IMG/VR virus record: IMGVR_UViG_3300021400_001346
Coordinates: 51,740-115,739 of that record
Length of the DNA stretch: 64,000 nt
Reading direction: 5' to 3' (one strand)
DNA from: a virus
Taxonomy: Duplodnaviria; Caudoviricetes
The notes below the pieces were generated by a model. That model was not told where the DNA came from. It ran no database searches and saw nothing but the letters and a program-made list of their open reading frames with translations. This document shows positions 3,455-64,000 of this stretch, one piece after another. Made by a program: the position numbers and the translations under genes. The first letter of the stretch is position 1. Each line of letters starts with the position of its first letter.

Positions 3455-3961
3455 ATGAAAAGTTTAAAAAATATTAATAAGGCGGTTTTTGAAATCGTTA
3501 CTTTGCTTTTACAAAACGATAATATTAAGAAACTTTTGTTTTGGGACTCCGCCGATGCACTTAGTTTAGAGGTGCCAGACATTTCTATTCAACGTTATAT
3601 TGATGATAAATACATCTGGCTTTATCCCGCCGTTGAAACTGGCATTCAAAATTTTGAACGCAATACTTTCTTAATCGTTAATTTGGAAGAAATTAATTTA
3701 AGAGGTATGGACGCAAACACTAGCGCAAGTGGAGCAATTTATGTAACAACTGATGCAAAACATTCTCTCCTTGATAATAATCAACTTAGATTATTAGTAT
3801 TAGCAGATGAAGTTCGACAATCTTTAGATAATCATAAATTATCTGCGGCTGGTGAATTGCAAATCAATTCTATCCGTCAACAAATGATTAGTGAATTTCG
3901 TAGTGCTTATAGAATTTCTTTTAGTTTGTCAGACCAATCAACTAGAAAGGCGGAAATTTAA
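3455..3961 (+). CDS. Putative tail completion/terminator protein
   Basis: 168 aa, translationally coupled to neighbours, neck position. Confidence 0.4.
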   Translation: MKSLKNINKAVFEIVTLLLQNDNIKKLLFWDSADALSLEVPDISIQRYIDDKYIWLYPAVETGIQNFERNTFLIVNLEEINLRGMDANTSASGAIYVTTDAKHSLLDNNQLRLLVLADEVRQSLDNHKLSAAGELQINSIRQQMISEFRSAYRISFSLSDQSTRKAEI

Positions 3962-4692
3962 TGCAAGATAATTTTGATTTATTCCGTCTTTTTTTAACTA
4001 AAGAAGTTACGATTTATAGTGACGACGGAGCGGCACTTCTTTCAATGAAATGTCCTTCTATTCGTGATACATTAACAGAACATTATTTAAATCTTGCATA
4101 TCAACTATGAACATCTGATATGGAAGAAATCACGAAGAAAACTGGATTACAAGTAAAAAGTTCTTGAGATTTGTTAACAACCATCTTATTTGATTTAGGC
4201 AAATATCGTCAATTCGCCAACTTATATTCCTGTTCTCTTCAAACACTTAAATTTCTTTTTAATGACAAGGTATCTATCAATTTAGGTCTTCACACCCTAA
4301 CCATTGGTGATGTTATTATGACAGAAGAAATTTGAGATTATGTAATTTATCTATTAAAATTATGTTATGGGGTGAAGGTTTCAAAACCTATTCACTTTAA
4401 TACAGACGAGGAACGCCAATGATATTTGGCTCAAAAGAAAAATGAAAACCGCATTCGTGCATTAAGAGAAAAAGGCAGTAAAGATTCTCAAGATGCCATG
4501 CTTAAGATTTTTCTTAATATTACTTACGCGTTTCCTAATTTTACTTTTGATTATTTATTTGATCAAACCATGGCTCAAATTCACTGACTCCAAAGCAAAG
4601 CCGCGGGAGCAGTGTCTTATGAAGTAAAAGCGCAAGCTTATGCGGCTGGTAATATGAAAAAGGGTTCACAACTCGATTTCTTTATTAAATAG
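3961..4692 (+). CDS. Tail-module protein (possible assembly chaperone), 243 aa with 5 in-frame TGA(Trp); absent from the ORF track
   Basis: ATG overlaps the upstream TAA (TAATG); frame open to TAG 4690-4692 except TGA at 4108, 4165, 4333, 4420, 4585; fills the gap up to the tail-tube RBS. Confidence 0.8.
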
Positions 4693-4704
4693 AGGTATAA
4701 AAAC

Positions 4705-60661: not shown

Positions 60662-61230
60662 TGATAGCACCTGAAATAATAAAACAAGCTGAAAAAGTAT
60701 ATCAATACTTACAACCATATTGCATCGCTATTTATCTCGGCGGTTCTTATTGCCAAGATTTTATTCAAAATAAAGGCGATGTAGACTTTATTTGTTTCGC
60801 AGACGAACCCGTCAATATGTGTCATATTCGTCGACTTTTGTTCTTTTATCAAAAGAAACATGCATTGCCAGAAAATTATGACTTTATACAAGTTCGCACA
60901 AAACAACGTGAAGAACATGCATATGGCTCTTATATAAATAAACAAATGATAAAGTTAATAGGGGAAGATATTGATTTTAAATTTGATGTAATCAATCAAA
61001 ACAGAGTAGAATATATACAGATTTTAAAACAAACTATTGAAAAATTAAATACTGGTAAAATTCGCAATCAAAAAAGATGATACCAAGTTTTGCGTGGCTA
61101 CTACATCTTAAAACACAACAGTTATGATTTAACAGATGAAGAAATCGCGATTATTAATATGGTCCATGACCAACAACCAGGCTGAGAACAGTATAAAATT
61201 ACTGTGCAAGATATTGAGGAGGTAAAATAA
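60661..61230 (+). CDS. Pol-beta-superfamily nucleotidyltransferase, 189 aa, 2 TGA(Trp)
   Basis: AIYLGGSY...GDVDFI (GS + DxD) motif and a helical C-terminal domain. Confidence 0.75.
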
Positions 61231-61233
61231 CAT

Positions 61234-64000
61234 ATGCCAAATTTACAAAAGATTGTTAAAGTAACACAAGCACAATATGATATTTTAGCCGCAGGAGGCA
61301 CAGTAGGTTCTTATACTGGCTTAAATGAAAATTATGTATATTTAATTGAAGATACTAATACTTATATTACCAACGTCAAAACCGCCGCAGGCCCAAACAT
61401 TGGTTCCGTTGGAACTCCATCTGTCACCGCCACTACTAGTGGCAATGAAACCACTCTTACCTTTAATTATTTAAAGGGTGCCACTGGTGCAACAGGCGGA
61501 ACTGGTCCTCAAGGTCCAACCGGAGCTAAAGGTAACACTGGAAATACTGGTCCAACGGGAGGAACAGGCAGTACTGGTCCAATAGGACCAACAGGTTTGA
61601 CACCTGCTTCTTATTCAATTGAAAGCGCTAATAATGGTATATATATTTATAATCCAAGCGGTAATGCAGTTTTTGTTTCTACTTTAGGTCCTACTGGACC
61701 TACTGGAGCAAAAGGAAATACTGGAAATACTGGTCCACAAGGCCCTACTGGTGCGACAGGCGGCACAGGCTCAACCGGTCCTATTGGTCCAACAGGAGCG
61801 AAGGGAAATACTGGAAACACAGGTCCAACCGGTGAAAAAGGTAGTACCGGAAATACTGGTCCTACTGGTGCAACTGGTGGAACTGGTTCGACTGGTCCAC
61901 AAGGCCCAACTGGTTTTGTTGGTTCTGTTATTAGTGTTACAGGAAATAAATCAACAGTCGTCGCAACTAGTTTAAGTCTTAATACTGATAAAAATCTTAT
62001 TTATACATGGTATGATTTAAACAATGTCTTTGTAAATTATACCGCCGCACAATCATTAACTGACGCGCAAAAAACACAAGCAAGAAGTAATATTGGCGCT
62101 GGTACCTCTAATTTCACTGGTTACACCTCAAGCAATAAATTATCTACTGATTATATTAACAACGCGGCTGGCTGGACATCAGTAACTGAATCTACAGTTT
62201 CTGGTTGAGGATTCACAAAGAATACTGGTACAGTCACTCAAGTAAAAGTTGGAACCACAGCATATAATCCTACAAGTGGTGTAGTTAGTTTGCCTGCTTA
62301 TCCAACAACTTTACCTGCATCTGATGTTTATGCTTGGGCTAAAGCTAGTACTAAACCAAGTTATACTCACAACGAAATTGGTGCTGGAAATTTAACTATT
62401 GGTGATGGTGCAAATACTCTTTTCTTGAGAACTAATGGGGGGTGAGCATCTGGAATATATCACAATACTACTTCTGATGAAGCCGTTGTGTTTTTGAACA
62501 AAGCAAAAGATGCTAATGGAACTGCTAATTATACAACATCTTGGATTTTTGCTTATGGAACGCCATCAGAAAGACCAGCATGGACTGGATTAACACCAGC
62601 AATGCAAATTAAAGGCGATAGTGTTGTTATTAATAAATTGTTAGGAAGTAAAGTAGGTGCTTCATATAATTTAGATGTAAATGGTACAGCCAATGCTACT
62701 ACTATATACGAAAATGGTACTGCTTTATCTTCTAAATACTTAGGAATTTCTTCTAAAGCAACAGATAGTGATAAATTAGATGGAAATGATTCATCATATT
62801 TTTATCCAGCAAGCAATCCTAATGGATACACAAACAATACAGGTACAGTAATTGGTAGTGGATTAACTGCAGATACTTTTGTAGTAGGAAATGGAACAGT
62901 TAATGTTAAAACTTCTACCATGAAGCCAACAACATCCTCTACTACTTGGTCAACAACAAGTGATGTCAATGTTCCTACAATGAAAGCAATTTCTAGTTAT
63001 GTTACTGGTTTAGGTTATACTTCTAACACTGGTACTGTTACTTCAGTAGGTGCTGGAACTGGTTTATCTATTTCTGGTACTGCTTCTGTAAACCCAACTG
63101 TTAATATTGCTAGTGGATATAAACTTCCAACCACTACTGAATGGAATGGTAAAGCAACTGATAGTGCTGTTGTACATAAAGCAGATAATGAAACAATTAC
63201 TGGAACAAAAACATTCACTTCTTCAGATGGTATAAAAGTAGCAGATGCACAAAGTGCAGTCACATATGGTCTTACTTATATTGGTAAGGGCCCAGTAAAT
63301 AATCCTCCAGCATTAATTTATCACTTCCCTGAAACATCTGGTACTTTAGCATTAACTAGTGATATTCCAAGTGTATCTAATGCAACAATAACAATTAAAC
63401 AAACAGGAATTAGTGACCAAACATTCACTTTAAATGGTAGTGCTACTACAATCACATTAGTAGACACTAATACTTGGAGACCAGTAGGAACAGGTGCAAC
63501 AGATGCAGCAGCAGGTAACCATGCTCATGGTAACATTACAAACACTGGTACTATAACATCTACTGCAGTTACAAGTGCTACAGGATTCTTAGTATATGAC
63601 TCTAATAATAAAATTCAAAGAGCAACTAGTGCTAATGCTAGAACTATTCTTGGTGCTGGAACATATTCAAAACCAAGTGGTGGAATCCCAGCAAGTGATT
63701 TAGCAGAAACATACTATCTAGCAAGTAATCCAAATGGATATACATCAGTTACAGAATCAACAGTTAGTGGTTGGGGCTTTACTAAAAATGCTGGTACTGT
63801 CACAAGTGTAGATTCAGTATCTCCTTCTAGTGGTAATGTTGCTTTAAGTGCAGTTAGATATGTTTCTCAAACTTTAACAGATGCTCAAAAAACACAAGCA
63901 AGAAGTAATATAGGTGCTGGAACGTCTTCATTTAGCGGAAATTATAATGATTTAACTAACAAGCCAACAATACCAGCAACTAATGTCATTCCAGCCACTA
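61234..64000 (+). CDS. Long mosaic tail fibre (collagen segment plus fibre repeats), 3'-truncated
   Basis: Open to the window end apart from TGA 62206 and 62443; one 30-aa module (61597); [19 protein letters not shown], duplicated [16 protein letters not shown] and [17 protein letters not shown]. Confidence 0.85.

What the first reader, a model, noticed from the sequence alone, without database searches (positions are those of the whole stretch)
3961..63774. TGA is reassigned to tryptophan (code 4) throughout this phage
Seen: about 20 genes are broken only by in-frame TGA and rejoin into coupled ORFs, and no credible gene ends in TGA. Internal control: the fibre repeat [13 protein letters not shown] has TGA at 62206 in one copy and TGG at 63772 in the other. 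TGA also sits at positions where I recall Trp/aromatic residues in these families (RuvC PNVWRK, NrdG WTDIT, peptidase TWG). Established: stop-codon recoding is known in gut phages and Mollicutes. Several whole genes (3961, 46243, 54554) are invisible under code 11.
Basis: partly seen in the sequence, partly recalled or inferred. Interest (0 to 1): 0.8.

Follow-up and report, generated by a model that had tools for sequence, protein, structure and literature searches.

The report
Rumen phage reads TGA as tryptophan
This 116-kb phage from cattle gut spells about a quarter of its tryptophans with the stop codon TGA, a kind of recoding already described for such phages; its own TGA-reading tRNA went unseen at first because a self-splicing intron splits the gene.

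Summary
The window is the last 64 kb of a 115,739-bp IMG/VR phage record.

- **Gene structure.** Reading TGA as sense raises ORF coverage from 83% to 92% and cuts 71 ORFs to 55. Twenty-two genes hold 67 in-frame TGA, and all stops are TAA or TAG.
- **TGA means Trp.** In a syntenic relative (G001), with TGA masked, TGA columns behave like TGG columns: 63-64% against 66% are TGG or TGA. No aligned TGA column of either genome has Gly. An invariant Trp column in 11 phages holds only TGA (6) or TGG (5). The fibre repeat pairs TGA at 62206 with TGG at 63772.
- **"Throughout" is too strong.** The 18-kb replication block (26158-44034) has 0 TGA against 56 TGG in both genomes.
- **The decoder lies outside the window,** at genome 7726-8389 (-). 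It is a Trp-like tRNA(UCA) split by a 566-nt group I intron and carrying a second hairpin with a CCA loop. Default tRNA finders missed it. Twenty other distinct unsplit copies and 17 split copies occur in other phage contigs.

This matches the TGA-recoded cattle "Agate" phages of Borges et al., so it is a new member of a known kind. This scan had already noted the two-armed tRNA on at least 20 other genomes. I found no paper describing it or its intron-split form. Host code and splicing are inferred, not shown.

The parts
3961..4692 (+). Virion-module gene of 243 aa. All 5 Trp codons are TGA (4108, 4165, 4333, 4420, 4585). Invisible under code 11.
   Evidence: In 99 protein homologues the five columns are W 66, F 44, W 91, F 79 and W 99. 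At the DNA level, in 10 related phage loci, the invariant column holds only TGA or TGG.
7837..8301 (+). NrdG-like activase of the anaerobic ribonucleotide reductase, with TGA at 8260.
   Evidence: phrog_626. The TGA column is TGG in G001.
9467..14098 (+). Tape measure protein of 1543 aa with 3 TGA (11204, 11717, 12731). Under code 11 it splits into four ORFs.
   Evidence: phrog_4211 matches residues 256-1130 across two of the TGA. TGA 11204 aligns with W in both G001 and Geobacillus virus E3.
14112..24397 (+). Tail module downstream of the tape measure. The genes 14112-15278, 15917-17350, 17364-22964 (1866 aa, 6 TGA) and 23798-24397 hold 13 TGA in all.
   Evidence: The G001 homologue of the 1866-aa protein has TGA stops inside both matched stretches, 8 and 5. 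Under code 4 the gene ends sit 2-14 nt from the next start.
24407..25042 (-). 3'-5' exonuclease (RNase_T) with TGA at 24784 inside the domain. The true start is ATG 25042, behind the ribosome-binding site AAAGGAG.
   Evidence: PF00929 and phrog_192 span the TGA. Start site.
25032..26168 (-). 378-aa gene with 5 TGA, two of them (25070, 25061) close to the C-terminus.
   Evidence: The tail IP-W-xI-W-..F..GL is conserved as protein in G001 while the DNA differs, so the frame is read through both TGA.
26158..44034 (-). TGA-free block. It holds Pol III alpha, RecJ, primase, DnaB-like helicase, Sak annealing protein, GyrA- and GyrB-like subunits and a collagen-like protein.
   Evidence: Pfam. In 5714 codons TGA occurs 0 times in frame, 61 and 298 times off frame. 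The block has 0 TGA against 56 TGG here and in the G001 counterpart.
44419..45693 (-). Uracil/xanthine permease with TGA at 45228.
   Evidence: PF00860 covers positions 2-385 of 389. UraA (3qe7) aligns with residues 11-420 across the TGA.
46243..47934 (-). 563-aa gene of unknown function. 9 of its 12 Trp codons are TGA. Invisible under code 11.
   Evidence: Three full-length homologues have W at most of the TGA columns. Those homologues may themselves have been translated under code 4.
47944..49293 (-). UvrD-like helicase with TGA at 48993, 48897 and 47958. Whether the last one is sense or a real stop cannot be told.
   Evidence: The PF00580 match (residues 24-263) spans two TGA. The tail is compared with G001.
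54158..54934 (-). Holin (54158-54538, 1 TGA) and a small neighbouring gene (54554-54934, 3 TGA).
   Evidence: phrog_13712 (holin) and phrog_4105. Counts.
55292..56017 (+). RuvC-like resolvase. Both of its Trp codons are TGA (55685, 55832).
   Evidence: phrog_159. Both columns are TGG in G001. A solved RuvC has Tyr at the first.
58997..60661 (+). 554-aa gene with 9 TGA and 3 TGG.
   Evidence: The closest homologue, P0001 (identity 53% by BLASTP, 56% in the alignment), has W at 5 of the 7 TGA columns that align.
60661..61230 (+). 189-aa gene. Both of its Trp codons are TGA.
   Evidence: In G001 one column is TGG and the other Ser.
61234..63999 (+). Collagen-like tail fibre that runs off the end of the contig. 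A repeat unit has TGA (62206) in one copy and TGG (63772) in the other. A second TGA lies at 62443.
   Evidence: phrog_5073 and the collagen repeat.

Best explanation
What it is. The window belongs to a virulent-looking, 116-kb tailed phage of ruminant gut, distantly related to large siphoviruses of Bacillota. The phage uses TGA as a tryptophan codon: 123 TGA against 359 TGG genome-wide, and 67 against 198 in the window. It terminates genes with TAA or TAG.

How TGA is decoded. The phage encodes a Trp-like tRNA with anticodon UCA at genome 7726-8389, minus strand, about 43 kb upstream of the window. The gene is split between U34 and C35 by a 566-nt group I intron. The intron carries a PD-(D/E)XK homing-endonuclease gene, which itself holds one in-frame TGA.

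After splicing (inferred), the 98-nt tRNA has a normal UCA anticodon arm and a second hairpin in the variable region. The loop of that hairpin, GUCCAAA, copies the anticodon loop of tRNA-Trp(CCA). This second arm is most likely the handle by which a host TrpRS that needs CCA still charges the tRNA (inferred).

Why one block avoids TGA. The replication block uses TGA neither as sense nor as stop, so it reads the same under both codes. This is what one expects if the host uses the standard code and these genes must be translated before the suppressor has built up (inferred).
For: Shown: TGA is sense.
- Coverage rises and the frame stays open long after TGA.
- Pfam and PDB alignments run across TGA.

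Shown: TGA means Trp.
- TGA and TGG columns have the same substitution profile between G000 and G001 with TGA masked.
- TGA and TGG interchange at an invariant column in 11 phages.
- A standard-code relative has W or an aromatic residue at 4 of 5 columns.
- The fibre repeat pairs TGA with TGG.

Shown: the decoder.
- No plain tRNA(UCA), release factor or TrpRS is in the genome.
- ARAGORN in intron mode finds a split tRNA.
- The joined anticodon arm occurs uninterrupted in 11 phage contigs. The joined 98-nt product aligns end to end with those 93-97-nt tRNA(UCA) genes. One of them belongs to the syntenic relative G001, which fixes the exon borders.
- The body is Trp-like: G73 in all copies, and A1-U72 with G2-G5 in most relatives. 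This phage's own copy has G1-U72.

Shown: the second arm.
- In 21 of 21 distinct long copies the stem covaries while the loop stays [C/G]UCCA[A/U]A.
- A search that did not fix the first loop gave UCA in 15 of 16 hits.

Shown: the intron.
- Rfam RF00028 matches along its full length, E = 1.4e-4.
- U precedes the 5' splice site, and G ends the insert in all 18 copies.
- The helices P3, P7, P9 and P2 show compensatory changes across 12 distinct cores, including the P3-P7 pseudoknot.
- The ORF is PF11645.
- An independent 2025 bovine DNA run has a contig that runs from the 3' exon into the intron.

Shown: the partition. The replication block is TGA-free in both genomes.

Shown: kinship. All 97 terminase hits are phages of Bacillota, the best being Geobacillus virus E3 at 35%.

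Literature. Borges et al. (bioRxiv 10.1101/2021.08.26.457843) describe TGA-recoded ~127-kb cattle 'Agate' phages whose replication genes stay in standard code. They predict standard-code hosts for the recoded clades, apart from the code-25 phages.
Against: - No protein or RNA data. Contigs of three RNA runs laid on the tRNA locus showed no splice joint and cannot show one reliably.
- The Rfam score of the intron (26.7 bits) is below the family's gathering score (50). The ORF-less relatives gave no match at E <= 0.001 in a 40-kb search.
- The host was not identified, so 'standard-code host' rests on the TGA-free block and on published work.
- Some ORFs in the presumed early region outside the window do hold internal TGA. 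The split is therefore not a clean early/late one.
- The suppressor operon has a perfect sigma-70-type promoter. That argues for early rather than late transcription of the tRNA.
- Many 'W' residues in database homologues may come from code-4 gene calling, since every DNA-level relative I checked is recoded too.
- That TrpRS binds the CCA arm is inference only.
Confidence: 0.75

Rival explanations
1. The host itself uses code 4, as Mycoplasma and Spiroplasma do, and the phage simply follows its host. No code switch takes place during infection.
For: The phage carries about 31 tRNAs for all 20 amino acids, so a tRNA(UCA) could just be part of a full set. Code-4 Mollicutes also pair tRNA-Trp(UCA) with tRNA-Trp(CCA) (my recollection). 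Some ORFs in the presumed early region hold TGA. The host was not identified.
Against: Only 25% of Trp codons are TGA. The replication block has 0 of 56 in two genomes that are 55-72% identical in protein. Elsewhere TGG and TGA swap freely: 49 aligned columns differ. That pattern needs selection, and a code-4 host would not impose it. A tRNA built to show TrpRS a CCA loop makes little sense where TrpRS already accepts UCA. Borges et al. predict standard-code hosts for such clades.
Confidence: 0.12
2. TGA is still a stop, and it is leaked through at low efficiency by near-cognate tRNA-Trp(CCA). That would be programmed read-through, not reassignment.
For: The phage has its own tRNA-Trp(CCA), whose U11-A24 pair is the one found in the Hirsh UGA suppressor (the Hirsh comparison is from memory). 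One C-terminal TGA (47958) could be a real stop.
Against: Genes hold up to 9 TGA, and essential virion, lysis and repair genes are affected. The compounded yield of leaky read-through would be negligible. A dedicated tRNA(UCA) family is conserved across these phages.
Confidence: 0.05
3. TGA encodes another residue (Gly as in code 25, Sec or Cys). Or the interrupted genes are pseudogenes or assembly errors.
For: ARAGORN labels the tRNA 'SeC' because of its UCA anticodon and long extra arm. One family column has Cys in 4 of 99 homologues.
Against: Between G000 and G001, no aligned TGA column has Gly or Cys. The substitution profile equals that of TGG. The acceptor stem has 7 pairs and the body is Trp-like. 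123 TGA with no TAA or TAG inside the same frames cannot be decay. Independent runs hold the same DNA.
Confidence: 0.02

Closest known systems
TGA-recoded 'Agate' phages of animal guts (Borges et al., bioRxiv 10.1101/2021.08.26.457843; published 2022)
   Same: Cattle gut origin and a genome of similar size (~127 kb against 116 kb). TGA read as Trp, TGA in structural and lysis genes, replication genes in standard code. A group I intron endonuclease that uses TGA. Suppressor tRNAs often not detected.
   Different: Clade membership was not tested, because no Agate sequence was at hand. Here TGA also sits in repair and nucleotide-metabolism genes (UvrD, RuvC, exonuclease, NrdG, a permease). In my term searches of that preprint nothing came up about the suppressor gene being split by the intron or about a second CCA arm.
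Code 4 of Mycoplasma and Spiroplasma
   Same: TGA is decoded as Trp by a tRNA-Trp with anticodon UCA.
   Different: There the whole cell is recoded and TGA is the main Trp codon (established knowledge). Here TGA is a minority codon (25%) and is excluded from one gene block, and the tRNA is phage-encoded with an extra CCA arm.
Group I introns in bacterial tRNA anticodon loops: cyanobacterial tRNA-Leu(UAA), and tRNA-fMet with the PD-(D/E)XK endonuclease I-Ssp6803I (from memory)
   Same: The insert sits in the anticodon loop right after U34, as in tRNA-Leu(UAA). It has U at the 5' splice site, a terminal G and a P3-P7 pseudoknot. Its endonuclease is a PD-(D/E)XK type (PF11645).
   Different: The host gene is a phage suppressor tRNA that sets the genetic code. 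The endonuclease gene itself needs the suppressor, since it holds an in-frame TGA. The Rfam score is below the gathering score.
Geobacillus virus E3 and SPbeta-like large siphoviruses of Bacillota
   Same: Terminase 35% identical. Same order of modules: terminase, portal, tape measure, lysis, RuvC, topoisomerase, Pol III alpha, RecJ, primase, helicase.
   Different: Those phages use the standard code. Only 11 ORFs match at E <= 1e-6.

Membership tests
Alternatively coded phage, TGA read as Trp (code 4 type) | Conserved genes are interrupted only by in-frame TGA, and coding density rises when TGA is read as sense | tested here: met
   Coverage 83.3% rises to 92.3%. The TAG-sense control gives 81.9%. 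No TAA or TAG lies inside the frames.
Alternatively coded phage, TGA read as Trp (code 4 type) | TGA columns align with Trp in homologues | tested here: met
   With TGA masked, 63-64% of TGA columns are TGG or TGA in the relative, against 66% for TGG columns. At the DNA level an invariant column holds TGA 6 and TGG 5. The standard-code phage E3 has W, F, W, Y, A.
Alternatively coded phage, TGA read as Trp (code 4 type) | TGA is not used as a terminator | tested here: inconclusive
   Every code-4 ORF ends in TAA or TAG, and 38 of 53 ortholog pairs align to within 10 aa of both ends. TGA 47958, and a few TGA in the last codons of ORFs outside the window (a TGA-TAA tandem among them), could still be real stops.
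Alternatively coded phage, TGA read as Trp (code 4 type) | A phage-encoded suppressor tRNA with anticodon UCA | tested here: met
   Present only as a split gene at genome 7726-8389 (-). The joined exons align with unsplit tRNA(UCA) genes of 11 phage contigs, among them the relative G001.
Alternatively coded phage, TGA read as Trp (code 4 type) | The host uses the standard code | not testable with these tools
   Host not identified. Indirect support: the TGA-free replication block.
Alternatively coded phage, TGA read as Trp (code 4 type) | Peptides with Trp at TGA positions | not testable with these tools
   No proteomic data at hand.
Agate clade of Borges et al. | Placement within the clade on the terminase tree | not testable with these tools
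   No Agate sequence is available here.
Host-wide code 4 (Mollicutes type) | TGA is used in all gene classes, replication genes included | tested here: not met
   0 TGA against 56 TGG in the replication block of both genomes (Fisher p = 3e-8 and 4e-13).
Code 25 (TGA read as Gly) | TGA columns align with Gly | tested here: not met
   In the masked comparison, no aligned TGA column of G000 (38) or of G001 (67) has Gly.
Selenocysteine insertion | A tRNA-Sec with an 8-bp acceptor stem, and Cys/Sec columns in homologues | tested here: not met
   The acceptor stem has 7 pairs and the D-arm is Trp-like. No aligned TGA column of G000 or G001 has Cys. SECIS elements and SelB were not searched for.
Group I intron | U before the 5' splice site and a terminal G | tested here: met
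   The exon ends ...GGTCTT, and the insert ends in G in all 18 split copies.
Group I intron | A conserved core with the P3-P7 pseudoknot, supported by covariation | tested here: met
   P3 has four fully paired versions, P7 three, and P9 and P2 show compensatory changes, across 12 distinct cores.
Group I intron | Reaches the gathering score of Rfam RF00028 | tested here: not met
   26.7 bits against 50; E = 1.4e-4 in a 901-nt search. The ORF-less relatives gave no match at E <= 0.001.
Group I intron | Self-splicing that yields ligated exons | not testable with these tools
   The RNA runs are held as contigs, and no joint was seen.

The most novel reading that the evidence does not exclude
The phage's switch of genetic code depends on an RNA-processing step. 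The only UGA decoder is made only after a group I intron splices itself out of the anticodon loop. The mature tRNA is then charged because a second, CCA-bearing hairpin presents the normal Trp anticodon loop to a host TrpRS. The same split occurs in at least 17 other phage contigs and escapes default tRNA finders. Intron-split suppressors may therefore account for part of the roughly 65% of TGA-recoded phages in which Borges et al. found no suppressor tRNA.
Probability: 0.4. Interest if true: 0.8.

Novelty: new member of a known kind. Interest (0 to 1): 0.45.

Why it matters
- **Annotation.** Under code 11 about 20 genes of this window are shattered or lost. Among them are the tape measure, tail proteins, the holin, RuvC and a permease.
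- **Biology.** The phage adds a well-controlled case to the known TGA-recoded gut phages. It comes with a syntenic relative that shows TGG and TGA swapping freely everywhere except in the replication block. That is direct evidence for selection on where the recoded codon may sit.
- **Beyond the finding.** The code's own adaptor is split by a mobile self-splicing intron whose endonuclease needs that adaptor, and the adaptor carries a spare Trp anticodon arm. Both points can be tested at the bench. Both suggest that surveys which report recoded phages without suppressor tRNAs should be repeated with intron-aware searches.

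Tried and rejected
I therefore could not check, protein by protein, whether database homologues were called under code 4. I used DNA loci instead.
- **The search for related loci** with the 58997-60661 family found no relative in viral contigs.
- **Permease scan of genome contigs** for a host lineage gave only a 26% match in a Bacteroides bin. It is not informative.
- **megablast** of the replication block against GenBank phages gave only a 48-nt chance-like hit.
- **PDB searches.** UraA has Ser at the permease TGA, in a variable loop, which says nothing about the residue. 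The printed GajB alignments do not cover the helicase TGA positions. There was no hit for NrdG.
- **Release factor and TrpRS** genes are not in the genome.
- **Reads.** Contigs of three RNA runs and one DNA run were laid on genome 7000-9000. No splice joint appeared. Contigs cannot show a small spliced tRNA, so this says nothing either way.
- **Rfam** on four loci with split copies (two or three with ORF-less inserts, one with an ORF) gave no group I match at E <= 0.001 in a 40-kb search.
- **ARAGORN's parse** of the split gene as tRNA-Trp(CCA) with a 589-nt intron was rejected. It needs a G-G mismatch in the anticodon stem and a C at the 5' splice site, and the unsplit homologues show the UCA arm as contiguous.
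- **Literature.** Five searches found no description of the two-armed tRNA or of an intron-split suppressor. This covers the held library only.

Full report
**Where the window lies.** The window is bases 51740-115739 of a 115,739-bp IMG/VR virus record that CheckV rates as complete. G+C is 36-37%. By terminase similarity its nearest GenBank relatives are large siphoviruses of Bacillota. Geobacillus virus E3 is the best at 35% identity, and all 97 hits are Bacillota phages. E3 has the same order of modules. DNA of the tRNA locus is held by bovine and sheep gut metagenomes from several studies.

**The observation.** With TGA read as sense, the window resolves into 55 tightly packed genes, 22 of which hold 67 in-frame TGA against 198 TGG. 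Every complete gene ends in TAA (32) or TAG (22).

- Greedy non-overlapping ORF coverage is 83.3% under code 11 (71 ORFs, 11 strand switches) and 92.3% under code 4 (55 ORFs, 7 switches). Reading TAG as sense, as a control, gives 81.9%.
- After an in-frame TGA the frame stays open for a median of 60 codons. After a TAA or TAG stop it stays open for 7 (p = 2.7e-12).
- The genes at 3961, 46243 and 54554 have no ORF of 80 aa under code 11.
- Single Pfam domains run across TGA: RNase_T, Xan_ur_permease and UvrD. The permease aligns with UraA over residues 11-420.

**Which amino acid.** Database proteins turned out to be an unsafe witness. Every relative I could inspect as DNA is recoded too, so their 'W' may come from code-4 gene calling. 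I therefore relied on tests that mask TGA or work on codons.

1. A syntenic relative, G001 (118,402 bp, terminal repeats, 58 shared ORFs, 208 TGA against 335 TGG), was compared with all TGA written as X.
   - G000 TGA columns hold TGG 15, TGA 9, Tyr 3, Phe 1, other 10.
   - G001 TGA columns hold Trp 34, TGA 9, Tyr 5, Phe 2, other 17.
   - The control, G000 TGG columns, holds Trp 93, TGA 34, Tyr 18, Phe 13, other 33.
   - TGA and TGG therefore have the same profile, and no aligned TGA column of either genome has Gly.
2. In the family of gene 3961-4692, a column that is Trp in 99 of 99 proteins holds TGA in 6 and TGG in 5 of 11 phages. A second column holds TGA in 10 and TGT in 1.
3. Geobacillus virus E3, a cultured standard-code phage, has W, F, W, Y, A at the five TGA columns that align.
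4. RuvC (both TGA) and NrdG have TGG in G001.

**Is TGA ever a stop?** The claim is partly circular, since a code-4 ORF cannot end in TGA, but it survives the tests. In 38 of 53 ortholog pairs the alignment reaches within 10 residues of both code-4 C-termini. In 14 of 16 pairs it continues past the last TGA. The two TGA near the end of gene 25032-26168 are conserved as TGA in G001, inside a tail that is conserved as protein while the DNA differs. Ambiguous cases remain: TGA 47958 in the UvrD-like gene and, outside the window, a TGA-TAA tandem and two TGA a few codons before the stop.

**Uneven use.** The block 26158-44034 encodes Pol III alpha, RecJ, primase, DnaB-like helicase, Sak, GyrA and GyrB. 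It has no in-frame TGA in 5714 codons, while TGA occurs 61 and 298 times in the other two frames. It also has no TGA stops. The counterpart in G001 is TGA-free as well. In each genome the count is 0 of 56 Trp codons, against 29% and 43% elsewhere (Fisher p = 3e-8 and 4e-13). TGG and TGA differ at 49 aligned columns elsewhere, so this is selection, not lack of time. The block is code-neutral: it reads the same whether TGA is stop or Trp. [quoted passage not shown] The split is not a clean early/late one. UvrD, RuvC, an exonuclease, NrdG and a permease hold TGA, and so do some ORFs of the presumed early region.

**The decoder.** ARAGORN and Rfam together find 31 tRNAs, a tmRNA and a ROOL RNA, all in the part of the genome that lies outside the window. 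They find no plain tRNA(UCA). No release factor or TrpRS is encoded either.

A first-stage note of this scan (e1-5972276) pointed to genome 7726-8389, and I tested it.

- ARAGORN in intron mode finds a split tRNA there, but its parse as Trp(CCA) needs a mismatched stem.
- The alternative join gives the loop CU-UCA-AA on a perfect stem, GCGGT/ACCGT.
- That exact joined sequence occurs uninterrupted in 11 other phage contigs. In each, ARAGORN calls a 93-97-nt tRNA with anticodon UCA, in five of the eleven loci directly next to tRNA-Trp(CCA).
- The joined 98-nt product of this phage aligns with them end to end.
- G001 has the unsplit form, which fixes the intron at 8355-7790, between U34 and C35.

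**The intron.**
- It matches Rfam group I over the full model, with the core motifs AGACUA and GAUAUAGUC (26.7 bits, E = 1.4e-4, below the gathering score).
- It encodes a PD-(D/E)XK endonuclease (PF11645), which has one in-frame TGA.
- A search for the 5' exon followed by anything but C found 17 further contigs with the same tRNA split at the same place by inserts of 192-707 nt. All of them end in G.
- Twelve distinct cores align. They show compensatory changes in P3 (GAGG/CCTC, TGCG/CGCA, CACG/CGTG, GCGG/CCGC), in P7 (GACTA/TAGTC, GAGTA/TACTC, GAGCA/TGCTC), and in P9 and P2. Together these give the group I pseudoknot topology.

Splicing itself is inferred. The gene sits at the end of a short operon, between a perfect TTGACA-17-TATAAT promoter and an intrinsic terminator.

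**The second arm.** Between the UCA arm and the T-arm lies a 5-bp stem that covaries. Its 7-nt loop is [C/G]UCCA[A/U]A in 21 of 21 distinct long copies. Four plain tRNA(UCA) genes of 72-75 nt also exist. A search that fixed the D-arm, the CCA loop and the T-loop, but left the first loop free, returned UCA in 15 of 16 hits. The body is Trp-like: G73 in all copies, and A1-U72 with G2-G5 in most. TGA columns behave as Trp, not as Ser, so despite the long extra arm the tRNA must be charged with Trp. The simplest reading is that the extra arm shows TrpRS the CCA loop it requires. This is inference. This scan has reached the same reading on at least 20 other genomes. I found no paper that describes it.

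**Verdict.** The phenomenon is of a known kind (Ivanova et al. 2014, from memory; Borges et al.), and this phage is a new member of it. Three points go beyond the finding.
- The codon is excluded from the replication block in two genomes.
- The decoder exists but is split by a group I intron, which is why default tools miss it.
- Such split suppressors recur in many phage contigs.

Host code, splicing and charging remain to be shown.

Noticed in passing
window 44419-45693 (-): A full-length uracil/xanthine permease (PF00860; E = 1e-41 to UraA) is encoded by the phage. It has no counterpart in the relative G001. It looks like a recently gained auxiliary gene for nucleobase uptake.
   Followed up: partly
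window 42202-44034 (-), 56020-58995 (+), 61234-63999 (+); genome 43-1416 (+): Four collagen-repeat proteins. The 991-aa one has 13 collagen-repeat stretches and no Trp codon at all. The fibre gene at 61234 runs off the contig end, so the record may be circularly permuted or cut there.
   Followed up: no
window 5961-8301 (+): The anaerobic ribonucleotide reductase genes (NrdD-like, 624 aa; NrdG-like, 154 aa) sit in the middle of the virion gene module. This fits an anaerobic host.
   Followed up: no
genome 17984-18368 (-), 23878-24455 (-), 17906-27869 (-); all outside the window: The phage encodes a tmRNA (72 bits), a ROOL RNA (215 bits) and about 31 tRNAs covering all 20 amino acids. A tmRNA could matter for ribosomes that stall at TGA.
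   Followed up: partly
L070, L090, L091, L095, L099 (just after the 5' exon of the split tRNA): Another lineage of the intron carries an ORF that opens ATG AGT GAT TGA, that is, with TGA as its fourth codon. This endonuclease too can be made only once the suppressor works.
   Followed up: no
genome 44435-45397 (-): A GIY-YIG endonuclease-like ORF with 4 in-frame TGA lies next to the terminase region. It may be another mobile element whose expression depends on suppression.
   Followed up: no
L061 9519-13622 (Geobacillus virus E3, NC_029073.1): The record's topoisomerase II CDS is annotated as joined across an in-frame stop codon. Its note cites peptide sequencing for a fusion product. So a standard-code relative also shows a stop being read through or bypassed.
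   Followed up: no
genome 31054-31824 (-): An ORF in the presumed early region ends TGA-TAA. Two other early-region ORFs have a TGA 4-6 codons before the TAA/TAG stop. These may be true TGA stops with a back-up stop.
   Followed up: partly
L059 10725-10805: A tRNA-like sequence with the same D-arm and a CCA-type loop, but a different, longer insert in place of the UCA arm. Its nature is unclear.
   Followed up: no
run X4 laid on genome 7791-7864: Several unrelated contigs of a bovine gut DNA run match only the 3' core of the intron and then diverge. Related group I introns seem to sit in other genes or phages of the same community.
   Followed up: no
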